Shown: positions 26,917 through 51,909 of the stretch, piece by piece
Layout of the letters: each line of letters opens with the position of its first letter
Position numbering within the stretch: position 1 is the first letter of the stretch
Source: a virus
DNA length: 64,000 bases
Reading direction: 5' to 3' (one strand)
IMG/VR virus record: IMGVR_UViG_3300042884_001120
Coordinates: 64,001-128,000 of that record
The notes under the pieces: generated by a model
What the model was told of the DNA's origin: nothing
Databases searched by the model: none
The model's input: only the letters and a program-made list of their open reading frames with translations
Position numbers and translations under genes: made by a program

Positions 26917-29900
26917 TTAAGTGATGTTAAGACCAAGAACGTTGAAAAGAGGTTTTGGTTTTTTGGGCGGCGGATTTAAACTTGGATCCTTAGTTACGGT
27001 TGCGGCTGCTATTGCCTCTACTTTGGCTAATCTTCCCTGTATAACATCAATAATTTCCTGATCAACACCTTGAAGCTCTTGTTGAATTTGTTGCCCCTGA
27101 GCTTGTGATGCGGCATTTATTGCGATTGTAATTGGAGAATTAAAACTAAGAGATGATTCGCCCGCTTGTGCTTGAGTCATATTTCTTTGAGTTTCTTCTT
27201 TTTGTCTTTGTATAACATCCATTTCCCCCTGAGTACTTAGCATCATACCCTGATATGGATTTGCTAGAGGGGAACCCGGTAAGGTCTGAGCCCTTTGTGA
27301 TTCAAGTGCGGCATCTGGCATTGTGAACCTTTCTCTATACATTTGGTTAGGTGCTGATTCTAGTAAATTACGCCCACCCATTAAAGCCGCACTATTCATG
27401 CCAACAGCTGGATTAAATATTGTTGACAAGTCTCCCCCTTTTTGTACTTCTTGTGCCGCCATGCCCGGAAGCTGCGCACCTTGTCCAGCTAACCCTCCCA
27501 AAATACTTACCATATTAGAAAGATAGCCATTTGACATTCCTATCTGCGTTGTAAAAACATCTCCTAGACTTCTTATTCCGTCTGGAATTTTATTGACCTC
27601 TTCTGTAGCCGCGCCGTATGTTGCCGATAAAGCAGCGCCTTCCGGACCTAGTTTGCTTATTATATCAGATTGCTTGCCCCTAAGTTGTTCAACTCGCGCG
27701 CTTTGTATATTAGCATCAGTTGGCTTAAATGCTATACCAGCCTTAACCTTTGCCGCCTCCATCAAGCCCTGTTCTGAAGTAAGCGCACCAGTGGTTTGCC
27801 TAACGGTTCTTGCAGCCATTGCTGGATCCAAACCAACTTTCGCTAAATTAGCCTCAATTGACGCCTGTTGTTTTTGACCAATTTTAGCCATAGATTCTAC
27901 CGCCATTTGATACATTGGATTGCTTGTGTCTATAGTGCCTCCTGTGGCTTGATAGGCTTTTATCCAATCGCTAGCGGCCTGTCCCCTTTGTTCGTCCGTA
28001 GCTGTCGTGTCTTTTTGTACGGCAATAAAATTATCTGTGGCCTCTGTAAATTTATCTGACACTGAATTGTCTCCCATTCCGCCATCGTTAAACATCTGAT
28101 CCATCGTTCCACCCAATTTATCCATTTCCTGAATAGTTACTTTAATTAACTCGTCCAGACGCTGAACAGTTTTGGTAGCAGCATCTTTTTGCGCAGCGAA
28201 TAGTAATTTATTATTACTATTGAATGTTTCTCTAAGTTTATTAAGCTGCTCCTCATCTTTAACCCCATTTTCTTTTAATGCAGAAATCATTCCCTCAGTA
28301 TCATATTGCTCTAATGGGCCCAAGGGCCCTTGTATTGTATTAGTTTTAACTGACCCAATTTTAGCAGATATATCTTGAATTTTTTTTGAAAAATCTTGAT
28401 TGCCAGTCACTCCAGATAAGTCACCTAACTGACCTCTTATATCATTATACTGACTAAAATCTTTAACTCCAGTGGCTGTTGGTATTGCTTTTTCGAACGC
28501 TGTATTCAAAGACTGTTTAATGGCCTCATCTATGTCTGCCGCAGATTTAGTTTGCTGTGCGCCAATAGTATCTTGATATATATTTTTTGTTTTAAGGTTT
28601 GATGCAGCTTTTTCAAACCCAAGTGCCTCTAAAATATCAACCTGTCCAGTTGATTTTGTTCTTTTAAAATCCGAAGCAAATTCTGCACCTGAAGTTGCAA
28701 TGCTTGTTCTCGTTGCAATATCCATACTTGATATTACTTTTTTCAACTTGTTTTCAAAATCTTGCAAGGCTTTTACGGCCGCCTGATTACGATCCACAAA
28801 ACCCTTGGCCGTATTCCTAGCCCCATCTAGTCTTATTCTTTTTTCTTCTGAAATTGCCTTGGCTAAATCTTGTGCAAAACTCTGCCAAGAATTTCCAAAC
28901 TGTTGTTCTAATTTTCCAGCTTGCTCCTCAGTAAGTCCTAGCGCACCTCTCAATTTACTTAAATCAATAGTTGCAGATGATAATTCATCACCCATTGCCT
29001 TAAGTTCAGCGTCAGTCTTTCCGCTAATAGCTTGCTTTGATATTTGCGCACCAAATTGTTCTTTATTAATTTTTCCGCCAATAGCGGCTTCAGCAATAGA
29101 AGTTGACTGAACTGCCGCTCCTTGTTTTGCTAGTCTATCACTTAAAGTTTTTAATACATCAGTTAGATTTTTTTGAGTTTTTGCGAAATCAAGACCACCA
29201 GCACTTATAGCCTTTTGTGCTTCTGGACTTGCATTACTTGCGATAGCTCTAATTTCTTTTTCTAACGCTACGGCCTCTCTAGAACCAGCATTACCACCTT
29301 GTCTTAATTCTTGCAGTTGTTCTAATTTTGGAAGTACAGCTTGAGTAACTTCGGCAAGCCTTGATTGCTCTTCCGATGTTTTTTTGGTGGATGCCTGCAA
29401 TTCTGGAAGGTTTGTCCTCGACTCATTTAACGCTTTAGTCCAAGCAGTTAATCCGCCGACAGCCAAACCAAGCGCCCCACCAATAGCGGTTCCGACAGGC
29501 CCTAAGGCGCTACCAACTAAAGCCCCAGTACCAGCGGCAGATAGGGCGGTTCCAATGCCAGTAACTGCGGCAGATTTAACTCTACCTTCTTTATTTGTGG
29601 TATCTATAGATGAGGCAACGGTTTCAGCTATAATCGGTGCAAAAGCCAACGCTGTTCCAGCAGCGCCAGCACCAGCCTGTAGCCTTGATGCGTTACGGGC
29701 GCCACGACTCAGTGTTTCGGCACCACCAGCTTGAATTGTTTTTAGTTTTGCGCGCCTGTCTTTAATTTCTTGGGCAAGCTGATTTCTTTCCTGCGTCTGT
29801 GTTGCGCTTAATTGTTTTGCCGCCTCACGCCTCTGGGAAATTTCTTCGGTAGTAACCTGTATTAAAGCCGCTTTTCTTGTGGCAATTTCTTCTTGATACG

Positions 29901-32706
29901 AGCGCTTGACATTTGGAATTTGAAAAGCTAGTAGTGTTGCAAAACTTGTAAGTTGCGCGCCAACAGCTGTAACAGTTGAACTAATACTAGTACCATCTCC
30001 CTCTGCAAAATTTGGTATATATCCCTTTGCATAACCACGATTTGACATCGCGCGTTTATCGGCTGAGGTAGAGCCCTCGTCTCGCTTGTTAAACACGCCA
30101 ACACCCATTGGATTACTAGAATTTACTAGCTCTGGATATTGTCTGGTATATATGCCGCTCTTCGGTACTCCAGCGCCAATTTCGCGTGATATTGATTCGT
30201 TTAAGGCATTTGCAAAGTTAGGAATATAGCCACTTGCAAATCCGGGCTTTCTTCTTGCTGGCTTACCGGGTGCTTTTCTTTTCGTTCGCTGTTCGGCACT
30301 GCTTCCAAGTATGGCATCTCTACCACCCCTTTCTTTAATAACTTTATCAGCAAAACTTAAAAGATTACCAGAAGATGCGGATACTTTAAAATCAGCAAGA
30401 TTTCCAGCATAACCAAATAATTGTTTTAATTTATCAGCGTTTTGTCCACCCCTTACGTCAAAATCTCCCATATTTGCTGTAGATTTTGCCGCTATATAAT
30501 CTAACGATTTAGATATAGCAACTTCAAACGCAGACCCAACAAAACCCTGTAAAGCGCCATAAGCACCCCTAGACCCACCATCTTTTTCACTTAAAAAACT
30601 CTGACTCAGAACTGATTCATCAACACCCTGACCAAGTGGTTGTAAAGTTTTTATATAATCAGCAACTGTCTGTAATCCTTGTTTTTTTATCAACTCATTT
30701 AAATTACCAGCTGGTTTTACTGCGCCCTTTTTATATCCACGGACTGGTATATCCGTTACTAATATATCTCTATTATTTTTTCCAACTGAACTTGCGTTCG
30801 GAAATGTTCCATATTCTGGAACTAACACGCTTGCATTAGAGTTTATACTAGTTTTTGCATTAGATTCTGCAAAATTAGGAATATATCCACGACCATACAT
30901 TGGAATAACAGCAGAATCACCATTTTTACCAAATCTTGGTATTTCCACTTCTTCACTATTCTTAATAAATTTCTTACCACCAATAGTTCCTCTACTTAAT
31001 TGCGCCCTTGGGTTTTTAGCACCTAATGCTTTAGCTTGCGCTTCTTCCATTGCGTACTGATCAGCAAAATTTGGAATATAACCAGCGGCTTTCGTAGTTA
31101 CTGGGACTTGACTGCCCTTTGGAACTCTAACACCAGCGCCAAATAAATTTTTTGATATTTGGGAAGTTAATGCGGCCTGTTGCTGCATTTGTGTAGTTTG
31201 TTGCTGAAGAACTGTTAATAAAACCTGAGAAGCCTGATTGACACTCATTGCCCCACTCGCCATTTGTTGATACAGCTGTGGATTTTTTGCTAATATTGCA
31301 GAAATACTAGCTTGAATACCTTGCTGTTGAGATGCCGTTGCGTTTAAACCTAGCAACTCCTTCACACTTCCTGCTGAAAATTTTGCGAAGTCTCCAAAAA
31401 GTTTTAACAAAACACCACCAACAAGTGCCAAACCGGGACCAGCGATAATATCTCCTAGCCCCTTTAAGATGCCATTTCCAATTTTGCCGCCAACACTTTC
31501 GCTATCTACATTATTTAAAGACTCTAATAAACTATTTCCTCCACCAACTAAATTTTCTAGCGCTGGGCCAAAAAGAGACTCTCCAGATTTTGCGGCAAAC
31601 TGGGTTGCATTTTGCTTTAGGGCGTTAACTTGCGCAGCTAAAGTTTTGTTTAATTGATCATTTCTTGTAATCGCCTCGTTTGTCGCAGTAGAAGATATTT
31701 GAACTGCGTTATTATAAACAGAATACTCTTTACCCAAATCAGATAGGGCAGCTTTTAAAATGTTAATCTGGAAAACACCACCGACAGCTTCAGCAACCGA
31801 AGCCTGTTGTTGAGAGCCAAGAGTATCATAAACCTTTCCAAGATCTTTTAATAAATCAATAGTTGATCTTAGTTGTCCACTAGCATCCGTAGTTTCGATA
31901 CCGAGACTACCAAGTAAGTCAACAACCTTACCACGCTGAAGCCTTGTAAAAATTGTCTTAAACGAGTTACCAATAACTGCACCACCACGGGCAGTTGTCT
32001 GCTGTGCAGAGGTAACCAAACCAATAAGTTCATCTAACTGAACACCAGATTGAGAAGCACTGCTACCAACACGACTAATTGCTTCTGCCAAGTCAGCGGA
32101 ACTAACCGCGAACGCCGCATCAACTGTTGCAAACTTATTAACTATTTGCGTTGCAGTTACAGACTGAGAGGCGAAACTGTTAACAGCTGCCGTTAATGCC
32201 TCAACGCTCTTTACTGTATCTAAACCGCTTAATCTTGCTAAAATCAGGGCCTCGCTTGTACGTTTTAGCGTCTCCTCTACACCAAGGCCCTGACGTGAAA
32301 ATTCTGTAGCGGCCTTTGCGACTTCCGCAAACGACTGGCCGGTATTTTTTGCAACATTAAAAAGAGAATCGCCAAATTTAGCTATTTGTTTATCAGATAC
32401 ATTTAAAATTACATTAATATCTGCAAGAGATTTCTCTACTTCAATCGTAGATGTTATTAATGATTCGAAAGCCTTATTTAAACCATATAAAATAGTTGCA
32501 CTAGCACCGAAAGCAACAACACGCGCGTTTGCCGCATCCAAGGATTTATTAAATTCAGAAAGCTGTCCAGTAATTCTACCTAATGGCTGGTTGCCCTTAG
32601 TGCTTAAATTTAAATTAAGATTATACTGTTGATTAACTAGTTTTTGTATCGCAGCATATGCTGGAGATACATTAGCATTAATATTAACTGTTGCTTGTGC
32701 GGGCAT
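26917..32706 (-). CDS. Tail tape measure protein (TP901-type core) with internal GYIPNFA-delimited cassette
   Basis: 1929 aa, Ala/Gln-rich helical; AATEFSRQG...TARGGAVIGNSFKTIFTRL TMP core; hydrophobic segments; follows chaperones and tail tube. Confidence 0.92.
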   Translation of the reverse strand: MPAQATVNINANVSPAYAAIQKLVNQQYNLNLNLSTKGNQPLGRITGQLSEFNKSLDAANARVVAFGASATILYGLNKAFESLITSTIEVEKSLADINVILNVSDKQIAKFGDSLFNVAKNTGQSFAEVAKAATEFSRQGLGVEETLKRTSEALILARLSGLDTVKSVEALTAAVNSFASQSVTATQIVNKFATVDAAFAVSSADLAEAISRVGSSASQSGVQLDELIGLVTSAQQTTARGGAVIGNSFKTIFTRLQRGKVVDLLGSLGIETTDASGQLRSTIDLLKDLGKVYDTLGSQQQASVAEAVGGVFQINILKAALSDLGKEYSVYNNAVQISSTATNEAITRNDQLNKTLAAQVNALKQNATQFAAKSGESLFGPALENLVGGGNSLLESLNNVDSESVGGKIGNGILKGLGDIIAGPGLALVGGVLLKLFGDFAKFSAGSVKELLGLNATASQQQGIQASISAILAKNPQLYQQMASGAMSVNQASQVLLTVLQQQTTQMQQQAALTSQISKNLFGAGVRVPKGSQVPVTTKAAGYIPNFADQYAMEEAQAKALGAKNPRAQLSRGTIGGKKFIKNSEEVEIPRFGKNGDSAVIPMYGRGYIPNFAESNAKTSINSNASVLVPEYGTFPNASSVGKNNRDILVTDIPVRGYKKGAVKPAGNLNELIKKQGLQTVADYIKTLQPLGQGVDESVLSQSFLSEKDGGSRGAYGALQGFVGSAFEVAISKSLDYIAAKSTANMGDFDVRGGQNADKLKQLFGYAGNLADFKVSASSGNLLSFADKVIKERGGRDAILGSSAEQRTKRKAPGKPARRKPGFASGYIPNFANALNESISREIGAGVPKSGIYTRQYPELVNSSNPMGVGVFNKRDEGSTSADKRAMSNRGYAKGYIPNFAEGDGTSISSTVTAVGAQLTSFATLLAFQIPNVKRSYQEEIATRKAALIQVTTEEISQRREAAKQLSATQTQERNQLAQEIKDRRAKLKTIQAGGAETLSRGARNASRLQAGAGAAGTALAFAPIIAETVASSIDTTNKEGRVKSAAVTGIGTALSAAGTGALVGSALGPVGTAIGGALGLAVGGLTAWTKALNESRTNLPELQASTKKTSEEQSRLAEVTQAVLPKLEQLQELRQGGNAGSREAVALEKEIRAIASNASPEAQKAISAGGLDFAKTQKNLTDVLKTLSDRLAKQGAAVQSTSIAEAAIGGKINKEQFGAQISKQAISGKTDAELKAMGDELSSATIDLSKLRGALGLTEEQAGKLEQQFGNSWQSFAQDLAKAISEEKRIRLDGARNTAKGFVDRNQAAVKALQDFENKLKKVISSMDIATRTSIATSGAEFASDFKRTKSTGQVDILEALGFEKAASNLKTKNIYQDTIGAQQTKSAADIDEAIKQSLNTAFEKAIPTATGVKDFSQYNDIRGQLGDLSGVTGNQDFSKKIQDISAKIGSVKTNTIQGPLGPLEQYDTEGMISALKENGVKDEEQLNKLRETFNSNNKLLFAAQKDAATKTVQRLDELIKVTIQEMDKLGGTMDQMFNDGGMGDNSVSDKFTEATDNFIAVQKDTTATDEQRGQAASDWIKAYQATGGTIDTSNPMYQMAVESMAKIGQKQQASIEANLAKVGLDPAMAARTVRQTTGALTSEQGLMEAAKVKAGIAFKPTDANIQSARVEQLRGKQSDIISKLGPEGAALSATYGAATEEVNKIPDGIRSLGDVFTTQIGMSNGYLSNMVSILGGLAGQGAQLPGMAAQEVQKGGDLSTIFNPAVGMNSAALMGGRNLLESAPNQMYRERFTMPDAALESQRAQTLPGSPLANPYQGMMLSTQGEMDVIQRQKEETQRNMTQAQAGESSLSFNSPITIAINAASQAQGQQIQQELQGVDQEIIDVIQGRLAKVEAIAAATVTKDPSLNPPPKKPKPLFNVLGLNIT

Positions 32707-32745: not shown

Positions 32746-33765
32746 TTACAACTTATCGCGCGCATTAAGATATTCGGATTTTTCGAGTGTACCGCCACTT
32801 TCTTCGGCCAACTGTAATAAACTTTTGCCGCCAATTTTTTCAACCTTTACTCCCAAGTCCTTTAAATCTGATTGCGTGGCGCCAACATGACCAGTTACTC
32901 TGGTAGAACTATTTTTTAAGTTTTGTTTACTTTTTGCGCTAGAACCACTAGATTGTGAATCCACCCAAGACACAAGCCTTTCTGGATCAGACAGTATTTC
33001 ATCATTGATCGGTTTGCCACCCTCAGCAGAATTTTGTATTATATTTTTAAACATTTTACCATAAATAAGTAAATCTATTTGATACTTTGTACAAAGAGCC
33101 GTCGCCTTACCCCAAAAATTCATGGGAATACAGTCTGTAATATAAATTAAATTTTGAAAAAACATACAAGCAGATACTAACCTGATATTTTCTAGACTTA
33201 ATCTTGATATATGTCCATTAAAACCCGTCCGTATATCCTCCACAACGTCTTCAGATAAATAATAATAATCATTCTCTGACTCGAACACCCTTTCTGTCAA
33301 ACCTTCGTTTTTATAGGTTAATTTCAAGATTGTTTCATCATAAAATTTATCGTTAGCATACTTCTCCAAAGTATAGCCCACAACCTCATTTCTTTGCTTA
33401 TGATAAGTAAGTAAGACCCTCTCATTTCTAACTATCTGTTTTTGAATATCTTCTTTTTGCGATTTATATAATAACTTTTCTTTTGTTTTATGTAGGTTTT
33501 TAACAGTCTTTTTTAAGAAATCTATGGTAACTTCGTTTTGTGACGACCACCACCCTTCAGCAATAGCTCTTTCTAACTTCTCCGCTTCTGTCTCTAGGCC
33601 ACGATTTTTTGCATCTTGATATATTATATCATACCTATCATATATACTAAAGTGCTCGGCTTGACTTGGGTGTTTAAAGAAATAGTCTATACCATTTATC
33701 GTTTTCTTGGAAAACCCACAGGCTATTTCATTATAAATCCTGCCGTACTCTGTAGATTTATCCAC
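32746..33765 (-). CDS. Putative tail assembly chaperone 2
   Basis: Position directly before the TMP; helical; GTG start. Confidence 0.5.
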   Translation of the reverse strand: MDKSTEYGRIYNEIACGFSKKTINGIDYFFKHPSQAEHFSIYDRYDIIYQDAKNRGLETEAEKLERAIAEGWWSSQNEVTIDFLKKTVKNLHKTKEKLLYKSQKEDIQKQIVRNERVLLTYHKQRNEVVGYTLEKYANDKFYDETILKLTYKNEGLTERVFESENDYYYLSEDVVEDIRTGFNGHISRLSLENIRLVSACMFFQNLIYITDCIPMNFWGKATALCTKYQIDLLIYGKMFKNIIQNSAEGGKPINDEILSDPERLVSWVDSQSSGSSAKSKQNLKNSSTRVTGHVGATQSDLKDLGVKVEKIGGKSLLQLAEESGGTLEKSEYLNARDKL

Positions 33766-33770
33766 ATCGC

Positions 33771-34532
33771 TTAAGAGTTACCTTCAGGGGTGGTATTTTC
33801 CAACTCCTTAGTTTCGGTTTTATCTGGCTGTTTATTAGCGGCCTCATCTAGTTGCTTGAAGTCTTCTTCGGTTTCTGCGCGGCCTAGGAACCATAAAGTA
33901 ATTAGGTAAGAAACACGTCTAATTGATGATTGTAATGCCTCGTCGTCGGACTCTTCAATCTCATCATATCTATCAAGATTTTCATCTAACGTATTCTTGT
34001 CAAAGAATTTAGCAAAATCAGTGCCCTTTTCTTGATAAAGTAGATTTGTAATCCACCATAGGATAGTGCGATTTCTAGCCTTTGCTTCGGCAGTGTTTTC
34101 AAAAATATTAATCTGCGCGCTTTCAAAAGATTGAATTTGCCTTCTAACCTCATCTAATTCTGTTGTTAGTTTATTTAATAATTGCTTGTCTTCTTCCGTA
34201 CGAACACCATCGGTCTTAATCAAAAGAGACTGAATGTCAAAAGTCTTATCACGAAATGCGGTTAATAGTTCTCCATATACTTCCCTATCTTGCTCGCTTA
34301 TGCTTCCACCACCATTTGACAAAATTGTATTCCAAGCGGCCTTTGGTAAAACGCCAGCTTTTGCAAACCTAGAAACTTCACTAGCAAAAAATAATTCGCC
34401 ATCCTCACGCAGTCTCCTATTTGGTTTAAGTAGAGCAAAATTTAAAACTTCCTTATTAGAGGTTCCGTCCGAGTTTTTTACTTCTTTTTCGGTACTAAAT
34501 TTATAATACCATTTCTTGTTATTTTGTTGCAT
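33771..34532 (-). CDS. Putative tail assembly chaperone 1
   Basis: Position between tail tube and TMP; coiled coil. Confidence 0.5.
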   Translation of the reverse strand: MQQNNKKWYYKFSTEKEVKNSDGTSNKEVLNFALLKPNRRLREDGELFFASEVSRFAKAGVLPKAAWNTILSNGGGSISEQDREVYGELLTAFRDKTFDIQSLLIKTDGVRTEEDKQLLNKLTTELDEVRRQIQSFESAQINIFENTAEAKARNRTILWWITNLLYQEKGTDFAKFFDKNTLDENLDRYDEIEESDDEALQSSIRRVSYLITLWFLGRAETEEDFKQLDEAANKQPDKTETKELENTTPEGNS

Positions 34533-38930: not shown

Positions 38931-40040
38931 TTAGACGATTAAACCGCAAACTGCACGAGCGTCAGTTACTACACGGCCCTCTTCAACATAACTGTAGAAG
39001 CCAACCTTCTGACTGCGAGCTAGGAACTGGTCATCAGGAAGAACCTTAACCTGTCCACGTGTCTCACTCTGGATGGAAACTGGGCGTAAGAAAGCGTTAC
39101 GTGTGGAATCCACACCAACGATTACCTGACTTGTGGATCCATTGAAAGTACTTCCACCGTAGGAAGTTCCACCAGCGAAGGCGGCGAATAGATCGTTGTA
39201 CTTACGTCCAACACCTAGTTCTAGTAACTCATGGATTGTAACACCAAAGATCTCACTTGTTCCAGCACTGCGATAGATTTCCTCACGGATACTATCAGGT
39301 AGTGCAATGGCTGTGTTACTCTGTGTGGATCCAGTAGAACCAGTACGAGTATTCATTGGCTGATAAGCAAACCCACGGATCTGCTCCTTGACCTCTGGAC
39401 TTACGAATAAGTCTGTTAGACCACGACTCTGTAGTGCGGAAGGTGTTCCACCAGTGTAGGCGGCATTCAATCTACGAACTAGTGTCCATAGCTTGTTCAT
39501 GTCGTCTAGCTGATATGTACCAGCTGTTCCAGTGCGGATGATGTGCTTCTGGGACTGAGTAGAAGCCTCGGCAAGAGCCTTAAGGACAACTGCCCACGCA
39601 TTACGCTCCTGCTTAACAAGAAGCTCGTTGGCCATACGCTCTAATCCAGCTGCAACAACGTCTAAACGTGCTCTGCGGACATAACGCTTCTCCATGGAGA
39701 TTGCGCTATCTAAGCGATATGTACTAACCTTCATCTCCTGAGTGCCCTGTACGAAGTTAGTTGGTAGGCCACCACCGACTGTCTGACTCCAGACACTAAT
39801 GGTTCCTTCCTGTGCTCCATAGTATAGATCTAGAGGGATTGATGGAGAATCATCTTCATCAAACTCAATATCACGATAAATAGCGCTAGCAGTACCAGTC
39901 TGTAGTAGCACTTGCTGAACTACCTGACTAATGAAAGCTGCGAAAGCTTCCTGAGCCTCTAGGGCTGTTGATTTATTGTCCGAGGCAAGAGCCTTGATTA
40001 GCTCAACCTGTTCTGGATTTTTTTCGAATTGGATTTTCAT
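38931..40040 (-). CDS. Major capsid protein (HK97 fold)
   Basis: 369 aa; follows protease/scaffold and decoration genes; biased codon use; terminator downstream. Confidence 0.85.
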   Translation of the reverse strand: MKIQFEKNPEQVELIKALASDNKSTALEAQEAFAAFISQVVQQVLLQTGTASAIYRDIEFDEDDSPSIPLDLYYGAQEGTISVWSQTVGGGLPTNFVQGTQEMKVSTYRLDSAISMEKRYVRRARLDVVAAGLERMANELLVKQERNAWAVVLKALAEASTQSQKHIIRTGTAGTYQLDDMNKLWTLVRRLNAAYTGGTPSALQSRGLTDLFVSPEVKEQIRGFAYQPMNTRTGSTGSTQSNTAIALPDSIREEIYRSAGTSEIFGVTIHELLELGVGRKYNDLFAAFAGGTSYGGSTFNGSTSQVIVGVDSTRNAFLRPVSIQSETRGQVKVLPDDQFLARSQKVGFYSYVEEGRVVTDARAVCGLIV

Positions 40041-40059
40041 ATTTTTAAATTTTTAGATA

Positions 40060-40596
40060 TTATAGCTCGATTTTTAGAAGAGCGAAACCTTCGTCATTCT
40101 TAGGGCCAAGGAACTTACCTACAGTTGCATTACCATAAGTAACAACCTTGATCTCGCCATTTCCGGAATCGGAAACTGCTGCTCCACTGCCGAAAGCTGG
40201 TGTTCCAACGACGGGGCCAACTAGTACAACACCCTTTGTTAGAATTGGGGCTGCCTGTCCACTAATAATTACGTCCATTTCAGCGGCCTTACGGGGCTTA
40301 AATAGAAGTTTTTCGCCATTTTCATCAACGCTACGAACGTCCTTTAGAAGAAGACCAACAATCTGGCCCTTTGCTGCGCCAGATGGTGCTGGAGAAACTG
40401 TCCAAGGAACTCCTAGGTGGGATGAAACGCTATTTCCAAATACGGAAATGTTATCAACTAAAGTTGAATCTTTGAGGTTAATACCCTGTCCATCGGCTAC
40501 GACGACAGTGCCCTTATCGACACTTGCGCCAGAGACAGCGAATAGGTTAATAACATCGTGTTCACTATAATCACGGAATGGTTTTAAGTTACTCAT
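40060..40596 (-). CDS. Capsid decoration/cement protein
   Basis: Small Gly/Val-rich beta protein between scaffold and MCP. Confidence 0.7.
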   Translation of the reverse strand: MSNLKPFRDYSEHDVINLFAVSGASVDKGTVVVADGQGINLKDSTLVDNISVFGNSVSSHLGVPWTVSPAPSGAAKGQIVGLLLKDVRSVDENGEKLLFKPRKAAEMDVIISGQAAPILTKGVVLVGPVVGTPAFGSGAAVSDSGNGEIKVVTYGNATVGKFLGPKNDEGFALLKIEL

Positions 40597-40627
40597 ATGT
40601 TTTTGTTTAAATTTTTGTTAGATATAA

Positions 40628-42340
40628 TTATCTATTGATCTTTACACTATTTTTATTGAAAGCGGCACTTATTTTTTCAACTAAGCTAATTTCTTGTGTG
40701 CTAGATGTGTTTGGGATGATTTGTTTCTCTTCTTTTACCGAAGAAACAATCTCTTCAACAGACTTCTCTTCTGATGGAGACTCTTCGGTTTCTACAACAA
40801 CAGCTTCTTCAGCGACCTCTTTGGCGGGAGCTTCAACAGCAGCTTCTTCCTCAACGGTACTAGCAACTACTTCTACTGTTTTATTTGTTTTTTTCTTAGC
40901 GGAAGCGATTGTGCTGAATTTGTTATACCACTTCTCGAAAGCCTCGTCATTCTCGATAGCATGTAAATCTTCTGCAATAATTTCACGATCCTCGTTGGAT
41001 AGATTAAACTCTTCATCAACAAGCGACATACGACGCTGGAAAGTTGCTTCAATTTCCTGAGCCTTGATAGCGTCCTGCATGGAATTGAATTCTTCTTTAA
41101 GCTTTTCGCTCTCAGTCTTCATCGCTTCTATCTCGCCCTTAAGCATGTTAACTTTTTCTTCGGCATTAACTAGTGCGTTATCTTTTTCTTCTACTTTGGA
41201 TTGCCAATCTTTTGAAAGGTCAGCAATACTATTAGAAATAAATTCACGAACTGCGCTTGCAGAAACTTCCTTAATGGAATCTTCTGTGATGTCTTCAATC
41301 TTATTAATTTGCATAGTACTTTTTACATCATAATTATCACAAGGGACACTTTTTTTATTAATTTCATTCTCTTGATTTTCATTTTTATTATTAGCGTCTT
41401 CTTCTACTATCTCAATTTCTTGCTTATCATAGGAAATAACTACACCCTTAACTTCCGCTGCCGGGTTGTTAGTGAAGCCTATTCCTAATGGCAATACTGT
41501 TCCTTGTAGATTCAGTAAAAGTAAATTACCGTCCTCATCTGAACCCTTTCCACCAAAGACTCTTAAAGAATCTTTTATTTTTAAAATTTCTTCCTCATCG
41601 TCTATTATATAGGCTTCAGCCAAATTCTTGCTTCCTTTAGCTATATTAAACTCGTTAAAACCAAGCTCCCAACTAGCACTAACCGATAGATAGTCTGTAG
41701 AGCTTGGGTCACTGCTCTTAACAAGTTCTTCCGCAAACTCTGGATTAACAATTTTCCATACATAGCCAGAAAGAACTACGTTGAAAGGTTCTTTACTTGC
41801 AGATACCTGTTCAAGAGTTAATGGATTGCTAGTACCAAATTCACTAAAACCATAACCAGTACAAAAACCTACAACAGTTTTTCTATTATGTTCAATATTA
41901 AAAGGCTTATTAACAAAATTTTCAACCATAGCTAGTGCTACTTCTGTACTAATTATATGACCATTTTTGTTACCACGATTTACAACAAATGCGTCAAAAG
42001 CTACGCCCATTAAGTCTTTATTTATATCCAAATCAACTTTTTGTGGCAGATATGATTTTAATTGATCAATAGATGCTACAGCTAAATACTTATCTTCCTC
42101 AAATGGAACCATTGCCTGTACTATAATGCCATCAAACTTTACTTGGTATTTAAATTTATCCATGTTAAAATTTACACTGTCTGCCTGAATATGCGCAATA
42201 TTTTTTAATTTACGATTTACTAATAATTCATTATTTGCATTATTTGCAAATTCAAATGCACATAAATTAGTTTTACTACCGGGCCTGTATTCTAGATCAG
42301 AATAATCGAAACCTGTTTGCGCTTTTTCTTCTATTATCAT
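40628..42340 (-). CDS. Prohead protease-scaffold fusion (nested starts at 42163 and 41314)
   Basis: NKNG, KPFNIEH, VSASWE, GIGFTNNPA protease motifs; acidic coiled-coil C-terminal scaffold. Confidence 0.85.
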   Translation of the reverse strand: MIIEEKAQTGFDYSDLEYRPGSKTNLCAFEFANNANNELLVNRKLKNIAHIQADSVNFNMDKFKYQVKFDGIIVQAMVPFEEDKYLAVASIDQLKSYLPQKVDLDINKDLMGVAFDAFVVNRGNKNGHIISTEVALAMVENFVNKPFNIEHNRKTVVGFCTGYGFSEFGTSNPLTLEQVSASKEPFNVVLSGYVWKIVNPEFAEELVKSSDPSSTDYLSVSASWELGFNEFNIAKGSKNLAEAYIIDDEEEILKIKDSLRVFGGKGSDEDGNLLLLNLQGTVLPLGIGFTNNPAAEVKGVVISYDKQEIEIVEEDANNKNENQENEINKKSVPCDNYDVKSTMQINKIEDITEDSIKEVSASAVREFISNSIADLSKDWQSKVEEKDNALVNAEEKVNMLKGEIEAMKTESEKLKEEFNSMQDAIKAQEIEATFQRRMSLVDEEFNLSNEDREIIAEDLHAIENDEAFEKWYNKFSTIASAKKKTNKTVEVVASTVEEEAAVEAPAKEVAEEAVVVETEESPSEEKSVEEIVSSVKEEKQIIPNTSSTQEISLVEKISAAFNKNSVKINR

Positions 42341-42376
42341 ATATTTATATTATAAATTTTTACAAATAAAAACAAA

Positions 42377-42991
42377 TTAATTTATACAGGAAAGGATTAA
42401 ATTTGACTCTGCATCGCGTCTTTCCAATAGGCCATCTAGCCCCCTGTCCTTCCATATACGTTTCATTTTTTGAAACTCAAGGGCAATACTTCTATAATCC
42501 TTTTTCGGCACAAGGATTTTTATTTCCCTCATTTCCCTACGACTATCACCAGTTAAGCTAGACCCACGGTTAAAAACTAATGAGACAATTGCACCATACG
42601 CATTATCACATAGCTTATCTAGTTCTGGGAAAGCTCTTTCGGCAAGCTTGGCAAACTTAGGCCAAATAAGATCATTAAAAATATCTACAGCTTGATCCCA
42701 AGTTATAATTATACCACTATTTTTATATTGATTTGTATACTCCTTACCGGCTAGCCCCTTTTTGCCAGACGCGCCTTTAACAATGTCTAATTGCTTTTTA
42801 GGTAAAAAATTAAATATCTTTTCTAGCTCTGCGGGAGTATAGTAACCACAATCCACTCCTATACCAAGCGTCATGCCGCTTGCGCCACCGGGCCACGTTG
42901 GCTTGGCTAAAAACCTATCGTAATACGACTTACCACCCCCTACTTCGTACTTCAATATTAAATCTAGTGCTTTTGGTGAAGGTTTTTTCAT
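42377..42991 (-). CDS. Endolysin (lysozyme fold, pesticin-C-like)
   Basis: KYEVGG...WPGGASGMTLGIGVDCG...AIVSLVFNRG...GLLERRDAE. Confidence 0.85.
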   Translation of the reverse strand: MKKPSPKALDLILKYEVGGGKSYYDRFLAKPTWPGGASGMTLGIGVDCGYYTPAELEKIFNFLPKKQLDIVKGASGKKGLAGKEYTNQYKNSGIIITWDQAVDIFNDLIWPKFAKLAERAFPELDKLCDNAYGAIVSLVFNRGSSLTGDSRREMREIKILVPKKDYRSIALEFQKMKRIWKDRGLDGLLERRDAESNLILSCIN

Positions 42992-51318: not shown

Positions 51319-51909
51319 ATGCTTTCGTTAACTAGTTCGGATATTTTTAAAACAATACAAAACGATTTGGCTGAAAATGATGGTAAAATTTTTATACAAA
51401 AAGGCAAGTATTGCGCTGGTCATAGCAAGTGCGAAGGAATCTTTTACTTTAATAGTAAAGAACAACCTATAATAAAAGTAGCAACTGGCGGCAAAACACA
51501 AGAAGAATGGGTTGGCGTATTAATTCATGAGTACTGTCATTTTTTACAATGGCATGAGAATAGTAAAATTTGGGAAGAGTTTGATAACCAAGACTTTACG
51601 TTTGAAAATGTTATAAGTAATCCCAAAAAATTTAAGAAAGAGATTTTAGTTTTATTGAAATTAGAATTAGACTGTGAAAAACGTGCGGTTAAAATAATAA
51701 AAAATAATAAACTATTTTGTACTAAAGAGTACGCCAAATTTGCTAACGCGATTCTCTATAAATATGGTTATTTATATGTAAATAACATTTGGCCGAATTC
51801 TGGCGCTAAATATAGAGCAATAGCAGATCACTGCCCAAATGTTCTATTAAAATCGCATCTTAACTATATAGAAATACCTAATTCTATAAGTACACTATAC
51901 TCAAGTTAA
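51319..51909 (+). CDS. Zincin-like metallopeptidase
   Basis: LIHEYCH (HExxH) plus downstream ELDCE. Confidence 0.65.
   Translation: MLSLTSSDIFKTIQNDLAENDGKIFIQKGKYCAGHSKCEGIFYFNSKEQPIIKVATGGKTQEEWVGVLIHEYCHFLQWHENSKIWEEFDNQDFTFENVISNPKKFKKEILVLLKLELDCEKRAVKIIKNNKLFCTKEYAKFANAILYKYGYLYVNNIWPNSGAKYRAIADHCPNVLLKSHLNYIEIPNSISTLYSS

What the first reader, a model, noticed from the sequence alone, without database searches (positions are those of the whole stretch)
30004..31083. Tape measure protein carries a cassette delimited by four exact GYIPNFA motifs
Seen: GYIPNFA occurs four times (31063-31083, 30868-30888, 30211-30231, 30004-30024; aa 542, 607, 826, 895). The amino acids are identical but the codons differ, so selection acts on the peptide. 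The motifs bound three non-helical modules of 58, 212 and 62 aa. The cassette lies between hydrophobic segments (IIAGPGLALVGGVLLKLFG before; TAVGAQLTSFATLLAF and GALVGSALGPVGTAIGGALGLAVGG after). Known: TMPs are ejected, often proteolytically processed, and can span the inner membrane. Inference: the TMP is a polyprotein whose motifs are cleavage or release sites, placing cargo in the cytoplasm at injection. The two short flanking modules could be the processing machinery.
Basis: partly seen in the sequence, partly recalled or inferred. Interest (0 to 1): 0.9.

Follow-up and report, generated by a model that had tools for sequence, protein, structure and literature searches.

The report
Motif-fenced swappable modules in tape measure
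The tail-length "ruler" protein of an uncultured 154-kb phage carries folded inserts, one of them enzyme-like, each fenced by the same nine-residue peptide, and related phages swap inserts exactly at that peptide; whether the protein is cut there is untested.

Summary
GYIPNFA occurs four times in the 1929-aa tape measure protein (TMP, window 26917-32706, minus strand), with different codons, and nowhere else in the 154,360-bp genome.

The motif (A-x-G-[YF]-[IV]-P-N-F-A) stands at every module border in more than 300 related metagenomic TMPs, with 2-9 copies each.

Between near-identical phages, nucleotide homology stops at the last codon of motif 2 and resumes 3 residues before motif 3.

The layout is ordered, not a free cargo string:
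- Two small related bookend domains, sN and sC.
- A nearly universal but fast-diverging module A.
- Optional extras in relatives, for example P-loop modules.

Module A keeps E728, D750 and D772-x-K774 in about 265 of 267 versions. It folds confidently (pLDDT 90) but matches no solved or viral structure, so the nuclease reading is inconclusive.

Nothing here shows cleavage, release or entry into the cytoplasm. One lead supports cutting: phage T5's TMP is cut at SFVPR|AEGG, which holds the only [FYW][IVL]P in that protein.

This scan found the same motif-fenced TMP cassettes earlier in other genomes. The searched literature does not mention the motif.

The parts
26917..32706 (-). Tape measure protein gene, 1929 aa (P0001)
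   Evidence: ORF. PF10145 E 9.5e-28 at aa 119-310. PHROG TMP families down to E 2.8e-51. N-terminal part about 26% identical to Bacillus siphophage TMPs such as SPbeta YomI.
31777..32352 (-). PF10145 (PhageMin_Tail) region, aa 119-310
31393..31449 (-). Hydrophobic segment before the cassette, aa 420-438
   Evidence: Kyte-Doolittle peak 1.86
31063..31083 (-). Junction motif 1, GYIPNFA, aa 542-548
   Evidence: This first copy is degenerate (GYIPEFA or GYIPSFA) in one clade of relatives.
30889..31062 (-). Small bookend domain sN, aa 549-606. It holds internal echoes of the motif (EIPRFG, AVIPMYG).
   Evidence: Module family of about 90 members. Alignment A5. Related to sC by BLASTP at 29-39% identity, E about 1e-5, and by hhalign at probability 98%, which is partly driven by the shared motifs.
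30868..30888 (-). Junction motif 2, GYIPNFA, aa 607-613. This is the left recombination breakpoint.
   Evidence: 80% nucleotide homology with L066 and L068 ends at window 30869. Protein identity of 93% ends at aa 613.
30232..30867 (-). Module A, aa 614-825. Enzyme-like domain: N-terminal 5-stranded beta subdomain, then a helical/strand core.
   Evidence: AF2 mean pLDDT 90, pTM 0.82. An A-type module is found in 281 of 300 related TMPs. 359 clusters at 50% identity, nearly all long TMPs or fragments. No Pfam, PHROG or PDB sequence hit. No fold match.
30385..30525 (-). Conserved E...D...(D/E)xK signature of module A: E728 (30523-30525), D750 (30457-30459), D772-x-K774 (30385-30393)
   Evidence: In 267 distinct A modules: E 248 plus D 17; D 265; D/E 265; K 265. 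Invariant in alignments A2 and A4.
30211..30231 (-). Junction motif 3, GYIPNFA, aa 826-832. This is the right recombination breakpoint. It is preceded by a basic linker of about 25 aa that the model places with low confidence.
   Evidence: Homology with L066 and L068 resumes at window 30240, which is aa 823. pLDDT falls to 56-70 at the tail of module A.
30025..30210 (-). Small bookend domain sC, aa 833-894. Predicted as a helix plus a beta hairpin.
   Evidence: Family of about 272 members, last module of nearly every cassette. Invariant R, E, G, L, N, G, V, E in alignment A3. pLDDT 71-85 in the cassette model.
30004..30024 (-). Junction motif 4, GYIPNFA, aa 895-901
29917..29973 (-). Hydrophobic segment directly after the cassette, aa 912-930
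29437..29574 (-). Uncharged glycine-zipper-like run, aa 1045-1090, with six [GAS]xxxGxxx[GAS] hits
   Evidence: Glycine zippers of TMPs and of the T6SS DNase Tde1 are linked to membrane translocation in PMC10240207.
32746..33765 (-). 339-aa gene directly upstream of the TMP, in the chaperone position. It travels with this TMP lineage.
   Evidence: tblastn finds it upstream of the TMP in 26 related loci, down to about 25% identity. No Pfam or PHROG hit.

Best explanation
The TMP carries a modular insertion between its N-terminal helical part and its membrane-active hydrophobic and glycine-zipper segments. In this window the insertion reads motif-sN-motif-A-motif-sC-motif.

Shown here:
- The nine-residue peptide A-x-G-[YF]-[IV]-P-N-F-A is a junction signal selected at the peptide level.
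- It is independent of which modules flank it and lies in linkers that the model leaves unstructured.
- Phages exchange modules by recombination with breakpoints on the motif.
- Backbone length stays constant while cassette size varies.
- Module A is a conserved enzyme-like domain with an E...D...(D/E)xK acidic/lysine signature, and it diverges or is replaced much faster than its surroundings.

Inferred, and my commitment:
- The motif is a processing site. The TMP would be cut there during tail maturation or after ejection.
- The cutter would be a protease whose site cannot drift. That is either because it is a host enzyme or because four or more copies must all keep matching it.
- The modules ride in the tail lumen and leave with the TMP ahead of the DNA.
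- Module A would then act on nucleic acid at or inside the inner membrane.
For: Motif conservation and context independence:
- 528 copies in 120 TMPs have G, P and N at 100%, F at 96%, I/V at 99% and Y/F at 96%. A at -2 is 82% and A at +6 is 80%. Conservation stops sharply on both sides, with basic residues upstream and acidic ones downstream.
- The same peptide borders modules of 61 sequence families.

Location in flexible linkers:
- The motifs fall in stretches with pLDDT under 50.
- The linker before the motif varies in length.

Exchange at the motif:
- L066 and L068 are syntenic with the window at 80% nucleotide identity over 11.8 kb. Homology ends at window 30869 and resumes at 30240.
- P0010 and P0013 have 92-95% identical backbones but only 21-25% identical module A.
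- Backbone length is 1552-1646 aa in near relatives while the cassette ranges from 360 to 787 aa. The correlation is -0.006 over 211 TMPs.

Precedent for cutting a TMP at the border of an enzymatic domain:
- T5 pb2 is cut after R1127, between its hydrophobic stretch and its metallopeptidase domain (PMC10038345).
- I read the T5 site as SFVPR|AEGG. It holds the only [FYW][IVL]P tripeptide in the 1219-aa protein, and shuffles place one there with probability 7.5e-4. Compare G[YF][IV]PNF-AE(G) here.
- Lambda gpH is also cut, by an unknown catalyst (PMC12617516).

Access to the cytoplasmic face:
- Lambda TMP is labelled from the cytoplasmic side of the inner membrane during injection (PMC13190303).

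Enzyme-like module A:
- E728, D750, [DE]772 and K774 are kept in about 265 of 267 versions, against about 20% overall identity.
- In the model they sit on a helix, a strand start and a strand.
Against: - No cleavage product, protease or mass-spectrometry data exist for this lineage. The phage is known only from metagenomes.
- No peptidase domain was detected in the TMP. The genome's HExxH ORFs are not linked to the tail module.
- sN contains internal degenerate motif copies (EIPRFG, AVIPMYG). In marine relatives the sN position is a tandem array of IPN[FY] units with glycine-rich spacers. That looks more like a structural or multivalent docking unit than a set of cut sites.
- One clade has GYIPEFA at the first site.
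- The T5 resemblance is short and was noticed after the fact.
- The fold of module A matches no known nuclease. The best PD-(D/E)xK row is PspGI at Z 3.6, rmsd 5.0, 117 aligned, which is within the noise.
- The homologue sets were seeded with this cassette, so frequencies are biased.
Confidence: 0.4

Rival explanations
1. The motif is a structural or docking staple and is not cut. It would bind a constant partner at each border between bulky modules. The partner could be the same motif of the other TMP chains (keeping the trimer in register), the tail-tube lumen, or the assembly chaperone. The cassette would then be packed or looped out without changing tail length, and the modules would stay attached to the TMP.
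For: - Degenerate motif copies lie inside sN, and marine relatives carry tandem IPN[FY] arrays there.
- In marine sC the last motif follows the domain core directly (NTRDEPTGAIPNFA).
- Pro-Asn is a classic turn pair (my own knowledge).
- Backbone length is independent of cassette size.
- A 339-aa gene in the chaperone position co-occurs with the lineage.
Against: - AF2 leaves the motifs unstructured in the monomer.
- The linker before the motif varies in length.
- A strand that packs against its neighbours should co-vary with them, yet the motif is the same beside 61 different module families.
Confidence: 0.35
2. Self-cleavage at the invariant Asn. The Asn side chain would attack its own peptide bond (PN|F), as in asparagine peptide lyases. 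The conserved acidic residues of sN and sC might help.
For: - Asn, Pro and Gly are invariant in 528 copies.
- The motif does not drift across lineages with only about 25% backbone identity, as expected if chemistry rather than a co-evolving partner fixes it.
- Viral maturation cuts at Asn, including Asn|Phe in tetravirus capsids, are known (my own recollection, not checked here).
- sC has invariant R-E and N-x-R-D-E.
Against: - Known Asn lyases need a folded active-site environment, not a 9-mer in a flexible linker.
- Borders between two cargo modules lie far from sN and sC.
- The first site tolerates Asn to Glu or Ser in a whole clade.
Confidence: 0.1
3. The motif matters only as DNA. It would be a short homology patch that lets phage recombinases swap cassettes, and the peptide itself would be neutral.
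For: Breakpoints coincide with the motif to the codon.
Against: - The four copies differ at synonymous sites.
- Codon use in 165 copies equals the gene background, so there is no constraint at DNA level.
- Amino-acid invariance across lineages with 25% identity can only reflect selection on the peptide.
Confidence: 0.03

Closest known systems
Phage T5 tape measure pb2 and its maturation cut into pb2* and pb2C (Linares et al. 2023, PMC10038345)
   Same: - A TMP with an embedded enzymatic domain, cut at the border between a hydrophobic stretch and that domain. The fragment stays in the tail and leaves on infection.
- The local sequence SFVPR|AEGG resembles G[YF][IV]PNF-AE(G).
   Different: - T5 has one site, one C-terminal M23-type peptidase domain and no repeated motif.
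- Here there are 4 (2-9 in relatives) identical motifs in the middle of the protein, swappable modules, no peptidoglycan hydrolase, and no shown cut.
Polyvalent proteins of phages and conjugative elements (Iyer et al. 2017, PMC5512222)
   Same: One large virion-associated polypeptide strings together unrelated effector-like domains. It is thought to be processed into units after delivery.
   Different: - Those proteins are mostly head-packaged or conjugation-delivered and carry a zincin-like peptidase for processing. The paper does not mention tape measure proteins (0 occurrences).
- Here the carrier is the TMP, a fixed junction peptide marks every border, and no peptidase domain was detected.
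Thermus phage P23-45 gp96, a TMP fused to a virion RNA polymerase (Chaban et al. 2024, PMC10770324)
   Same: A TMP carries a cytoplasm-acting enzyme that works at the very start of infection.
   Different: That is a single N-terminal fusion of a known fold. There is no junction motif, no module exchange and no bookend domains.
Demarcation motifs of polymorphic toxins (CdiA VENN, Rhs PxxxxDPxGL; my own knowledge, not checked here)
   Same: A short invariant peptide marks the point where a conserved carrier meets a rapidly exchanged domain. In Rhs it is also the cleavage site.
   Different: - Those motifs occur once, before a C-terminal toxin that is paired with an immunity gene.
- Here the motif flanks every module on both sides, inside a structural phage protein, and no immunity gene is evident.
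TP901-1/SPbeta-type TMPs with embedded lytic domains (PF10145; SPbeta YomI)
   Same: The N-terminal 400 aa are homologous, at about 26% identity. Enzymatic domains embedded in TMPs are common in this family.
   Different: No cultured-phage TMP in the INPHARED collection matches the cassette.

Membership tests
Tail tape measure protein, TP901 family (Pfam PF10145) | Match to the PhageMin_Tail profile above the gathering score | tested here: met
   97.9 bits against a cut-off of 33.2, E 9.5e-28, aa 119-310. PHROG TMP families.
Tail tape measure protein, TP901 family (Pfam PF10145) | Position in a tail gene block, with hydrophobic or glycine-zipper segments in a very long protein | tested here: met
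   The gene lies between capsid and neck genes and a row of large downstream ORFs. The order is identical in relative L066. Hydrophobic segments are present.
PD-(D/E)xK nuclease superfamily (module A) | Catalytic signature E ... D ... (D/E)xK | tested here: met
   E728, D750 and D772-x-K774 are kept in about 265 of 267 distinct modules.
PD-(D/E)xK nuclease superfamily (module A) | Signature residues sit on a helix, a strand start and the next strand of an alpha/beta core | tested here: inconclusive
   In the pLDDT-90 model E115 lies on helix 100-121, D137 before strand 138-139 and D159-K161 in strand 157-160. However, a helix (144-151) separates the two strands. Coordinates could not be inspected.
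PD-(D/E)xK nuclease superfamily (module A) | Fold or profile similarity to a known member | tested here: inconclusive
   No Pfam hit. No PDB sequence hit. Foldseek against PDB gave best E 0.63. VIA wide gave best Z 4.3, with PspGI at Z 3.6, rmsd 5.0, 117 aligned. BFVD gave none.
PD-(D/E)xK nuclease superfamily (module A) | Metal-dependent nuclease activity | not testable with these tools
   Needs expression and assay.
Polyvalent proteins (Iyer et al. 2017) | Several unrelated effector-type domains in one virion-delivered polypeptide | tested here: inconclusive
   In this window there is one enzyme-like module plus two small domains. In relatives there are up to 5 or more modules, including P-loop domains (Walker A in 31 of 33). 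Delivery is untested.
Polyvalent proteins (Iyer et al. 2017) | Embedded zincin-like (MPTase) or other peptidase that processes the protein | tested here: inconclusive
   No peptidase family was found in the TMP or in 18 modules of relatives. A divergent one is not excluded.
Processed TMPs of the T5 pb2 type | Proteolytic cut at the border of an embedded domain | not testable with these tools
   Only a local resemblance to the T5 site could be tested: SFVPR|AEGG against G[YF][IV]PNF-AE, shuffle p 7.5e-4 for the tripeptide at the site.
Processed TMPs of the T5 pb2 type | C-terminal M23-type peptidoglycan hydrolase domain | tested here: inconclusive
   No such Pfam hit in the 1929-aa protein at E up to 1.

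The most novel reading that the evidence does not exclude
A widespread lineage of uncultured aquatic phages uses its tape measure protein as a programmable delivery polyprotein. One universal nine-residue junction peptide serves as the cut or release site and also as the plug-in point for exchanging ready-made enzymes. These include a nuclease-like domain of a fold with no known relatives and small P-loop NTPases, which would enter the host ahead of the DNA. If the same peptide logic explains the still unknown TMP cleavage of T5 and lambda, it would point to a shared, possibly host-encoded, TMP-processing protease.
Probability: 0.25. Interest if true: 0.88.

Novelty: new variant of a known kind. 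Interest (0 to 1): 0.68.

Why it matters
- TMPs are known to carry single lytic domains and, in one case, an RNA polymerase. T5 and lambda cut theirs by an unknown mechanism.
- Here hundreds of TMPs share one invariant junction peptide that fences exchangeable folded modules. That gives a concrete, mutable sequence with which to ask how TMPs are processed and what they bring into the cell.
- The cassette is a recombination hot spot between otherwise near-identical phages. That is the signature of an arms-race locus, and TMPs are now known to be targets of host defence (SNIPE).
- Module A is a confidently folded, conserved enzyme-like domain with no structural relatives found.
- The junction peptide could also become a tool for loading proteins into phage tails.

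Tried and rejected
Searches that found nothing:
- Pfam, PHROG and PDB-sequence searches of the cassette and of module A.
- Pfam on sN and sC.
- tblastn of the cassette against 50,697 phage records. The major capsid protein also found none.
- No relative in 185,579 GTDB species genomes, so it is not seen as a prophage.
- ESM Atlas: module A best score 0.81, below a usable level. sC gave no usable hit.
- Literature search for GYIPNF, GFIPNF, GYVPNF and IPNFA gave only unrelated hits.

Structure work:
- AF2 of the whole cassette with 26 sequences was poor (pLDDT 52), and its fold search was uninformative.
- Fold searches with the good module A model found no match in PDB by Foldseek, PDB by VIA wide or BFVD.
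- Complex prediction of sN against sC (a 'clasp' that loops out the cargo) returned no verdict. It counts neither for nor against. The tool was unreachable ten times before that.

Ideas rejected or left open:
- The motif acting as a DNA-level recombination patch is rejected by codon usage.
- Stand-alone homologues of module A do not exist in this data: the few short hits are gene fragments.
- HExxH ORFs exist in the genome (window 51319-51909 and three outside the window), but none is linked to the tail block. I did not pursue them.
- Resemblances to sortase (LPNTA-like), signal-peptidase (AxA) or OMP beta-signal motifs were considered from memory and dropped as poor fits.
Full report
**1. Observation**

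The ORF at 26917-32706 on the minus strand encodes a 1929-aa protein. It matches Pfam PF10145 (phage minor tail / TP901 tape measure) at aa 119-310 with E 9.5e-28, and ten PHROG tape-measure families.

A degenerate back-translation of GYIPNFA matches exactly four times, all in this gene. None of 100 shuffles gave any match. The motifs start at aa 542, 607, 826 and 895 and leave modules of 58, 212 and 62 aa.

The four DNA copies differ at synonymous positions. In the whole 154,360-bp genome the relaxed pattern G-x-[IVLM]-P-N-[FYWLM] occurs in no other ORF of 60 aa or more.

The last is a glycine-zipper-like run.

**2. The motif in relatives**

A search of the 5.8-billion-protein collection with aa 530-910 found 547 proteins. 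All of those listed are TMP-sized, and nearly all carry PF10145.

- All 120 listed proteins carry G[YF][IV]PNF, with 2 to 9 copies each.
- A logo from 528 copies gives A(-2) 82%, G 100%, Y/F 96%, I/V 99%, P 100%, N 100%, F 96% and A 80%.
- Conservation collapses on both sides. Basic residues are enriched upstream and acidic ones downstream.
- IMG/VR and JGI/TARA contigs from marine and freshwater samples show the same motif, in TMPs only 25-35% identical to this one.
- Codon use in 165 motif copies from 62 genes equals that of the same amino acids elsewhere in those genes. The constraint is therefore on the peptide, not the DNA.
- The cassette has no match in 50,697 cultured-phage records and no relative in GTDB species genomes. 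The capsid protein also has no cultured relative.

This is an uncultured, apparently lytic lineage. A full-text search for the motif found nothing relevant.

**3. Modules vary and are exchanged at the motif**

I cut 318 TMPs at the motif. This gave 857 modules in 61 sequence families, 31 of them singletons, and 74 distinct architectures. There is clear order in the layout:

- A small domain, sN, comes first.
- A related small domain, sC, comes last.
- One to five or more larger modules lie between them.

sN and sC resemble each other at 29-39% identity by BLASTP. hhalign gives probability 98%, but the shared motifs drive part of that score.

A profile of module A finds an A-type module in 281 of 300 proteins. 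Families that BLAST had called different, such as f5, f9 and f13, are divergent versions of A. A is therefore a nearly universal core of the cassette. Other modules come and go, the commonest being a 155-175-aa P-loop domain with GPAG[VT]GKTT. Both homologue sets were seeded with this cassette, so these frequencies are biased.

The strongest result concerns the boundaries.

- Contigs L066 and L068 have the same gene order as the window and are 80% identical in nucleotides over 11.8 kb.
- That homology ends at window 30869, the last codon of motif 2. It resumes at window 30240, three residues before motif 3.
- At protein level, identity is 93% up to aa 613 and then vanishes.
- Between the two motifs, L066 has a divergent A plus a P-loop module. 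L068 has a further module, an A and a P-loop.
- P0010 and P0013 have backbones 92-95% identical and sN 91-96% identical to the window, but module A only 21-25% identical. sC is 74-82% identical.
- The more distant P0004 (61% backbone identity) has a closer A core, at 59%.

Among near relatives the protein minus the cassette is 1552-1646 aa, while the cassette ranges from 360 to 787 aa. Over 211 TMPs, backbone and cassette lengths are uncorrelated (r = -0.006).

**4. What the modules are**

A first AF2 model of the whole cassette was poor, with mean pLDDT 52. All four motifs lay in stretches under pLDDT 50, while sC reached 71-85 as a helix plus hairpin.

With a 41-sequence alignment, module A alone folded with mean pLDDT 90 and pTM 0.82. 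It has a five-stranded N-terminal beta subdomain followed by helices and short strands.

The following found nothing convincing:

- Foldseek against the PDB: best E 0.63.
- VIA-align against 48,161 chains: best Z 4.3.
- Foldseek against BFVD.
- Profile and sequence searches of the PDB.
- The ESM Atlas.

The one row that covers most of the domain is the PD-(D/E)xK restriction enzyme PspGI, at Z 3.6, rmsd 5.0 and 117 aligned residues. That is within the noise.

Against this, in 267 distinct A modules with about 20% overall identity:

- E728 is E in 248 and D in 17.
- D750 is D in 265.
- Residue 772 is D or E in 265.
- K774 is K in 265.
- G724 and F727 are also nearly invariant.

In the model these residues sit on a long helix, at a strand start and in the next strand. 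That is the order of the PD-(D/E)xK signature. Module A is almost certainly an enzyme or a ligand-binding site built on acidic residues and a lysine. Calling it a PD-(D/E)xK nuclease remains a reasonable but unproven reading.

A profile search of 1.84 billion representatives found 359 clusters. Practically all are long TMPs or their fragments, so the domain is specific to this TMP lineage.

sN and sC have no family or fold match. sC keeps invariant R-E and N-x-R-D-E.

**5. What the motif does**

These points are shown:

- The motif is context-independent and selected at the peptide level.
- It sits in linkers, and the linker before it varies in length.
- It is where exchanged segments join.

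Its molecular role is inferred. I favour a processing site, for four reasons.

- First, the same peptide beside 61 unrelated module families needs one constant partner.
- Second, T5 and lambda TMPs are cut, in T5 exactly at the border of the embedded enzymatic domain (PMC10038345; PMC12617516).
- Third, I followed a lead from earlier notes of this scan and read the T5 site from the genome record. It is SFVPR|AEGG, and FVP is the only [FYW][IVL]P tripeptide in the 1219-aa protein. In shuffles one falls in the seven residues before the site with probability 7.5e-4. The motif here reads [YF][IV]PNF-A-E-(G).
- Fourth, the catalyst of TMP cutting is unknown, and old work cited there implicates the host. 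A host enzyme, or the need for four or more copies to keep matching one protease, would explain why the motif has not drifted.

The case against is real.

- sN contains degenerate internal copies (EIPRFG, AVIPMYG).
- In marine relatives the sN position is a tandem array of IPN[FY] units with glycine-rich spacers. That suggests a structural or multivalent docking unit.
- In marine sC the last motif follows the domain core directly.
- One clade has GYIPEFA at the first site.
- No peptidase was detected.

I therefore give cutting 0.40 and a non-cut staple or docking role 0.35. Self-cleavage at Asn gets 0.10, as a special case with its own test. A purely DNA-level role gets 0.03.

**6. How the whole may work (inference)**

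The cassette lies between a hydrophobic segment and a block of hydrophobic and glycine-zipper segments. Glycine zippers of TMPs resemble the one that carries the T6SS DNase Tde1 across the target's inner membrane (PMC10240207). Lambda's TMP is reachable from the cytoplasmic face during injection (PMC13190303).

So modules placed next to the membrane-active part could reach the inner membrane or the cytoplasm. Nothing here shows that they do.

Allelic replacement of module A between near-identical phages is what an arms-race locus looks like. TMPs are now known to be defence targets (SNIPE).

**7. Comparison and novelty**

The closest known cases are:

- T5 pb2, a processed TMP with one embedded enzyme.
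- Polyvalent proteins (PMC5512222; that paper does not mention tape measure proteins).
- P23-45 gp96, a TMP-fused virion RNA polymerase.
- By analogy, the demarcation motifs of polymorphic toxins.

The gene is a member of the PF10145 TMP family. The motif-fenced, bookended, exchangeable cassette is a new variant of 'TMP with embedded domains'.

Earlier windows of this scan reported the same system in other genomes, and follow-up agents reached similar conclusions. It is therefore not new to the scan, although I found no paper describing it.

**8. Limits**

- Homologue sets were seeded with this cassette.
- No coordinates of the models could be inspected.
- sN, sC and the P-loop modules were not folded alone.
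- The sN-sC complex job gave no verdict and counts for nothing.

Noticed in passing
L066:12752-13267 and L023:104-577 (relatives' TMPs): Small P-loop modules of 155-175 aa with Walker A GPAG[VT]GKTT and a Walker-B-like FILD are embedded in TMPs of close and distant relatives, beside module A. They give only sub-threshold PhoH/AAA Pfam hits. I know of no P-loop NTPase described inside a tape measure protein.
   Followed up: partly
window 32746-33765 (-) and 33771-34532 (-): Two genes of 339 and 253 aa sit in the tail-chaperone position directly upstream of the TMP, with no Pfam or PHROG hit. The 339-aa gene is found upstream of the TMP in 26 related loci down to about 25% identity. It is missing upstream of the TMP in L036, where a homologue of the 363-aa gene abuts the TMP.
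   Followed up: partly
P0032, P0033, P0035, P0036, P0086 (long relatives, 2800-3100 aa): Further motif copies and sC-like modules lie near the C-terminus (for example around aa 1964, 2610 and 2686). Some TMPs therefore carry a second cassette far from the first.
   Followed up: no
window 26917-29900 (-) against P0002, P0003, P0010: The C-terminal half of the TMP is itself mosaic. P0002 is 93% identical in the N-terminal 541 aa but 45% identical after aa 1096, whereas P0010 is 74% identical there.
   Followed up: partly
window 29917-29930 (-), aa about 926-930: A further IPN element (QIPNV) closes the first hydrophobic segment after the cassette. It may be a degenerate fifth copy of the motif core.
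   Followed up: no
window 38931-42991 (-): Weak, sub-threshold Pfam hits mark a capsid protein (PF25209, 38931-40040) and a cement-like protein (PF22758, 40060-40596). A phage lysozyme (PF00959, above threshold) lies at 42377-42991, next to the head genes. No prohead protease was recognised between the 570-aa portal-sized ORF and the capsid gene.
   Followed up: no
window 51319-51909 (+); genome 5931-6632, 30842-31261, 39425-40681 (outside the window): Four ORFs carry HExxH motifs. They are candidate metallopeptidases of unknown role, and none lies in the tail block.
   Followed up: no
L074 (phage T5) pb2 aa 1124-1131: The mapped T5 pb2 maturation site SFVPR|AEGG contains the only [FYW][IVL]P tripeptide of the protein and is followed by A-E-G, like the motif here. 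This may mean that TMP processing sites share a common logic.
   Followed up: yes
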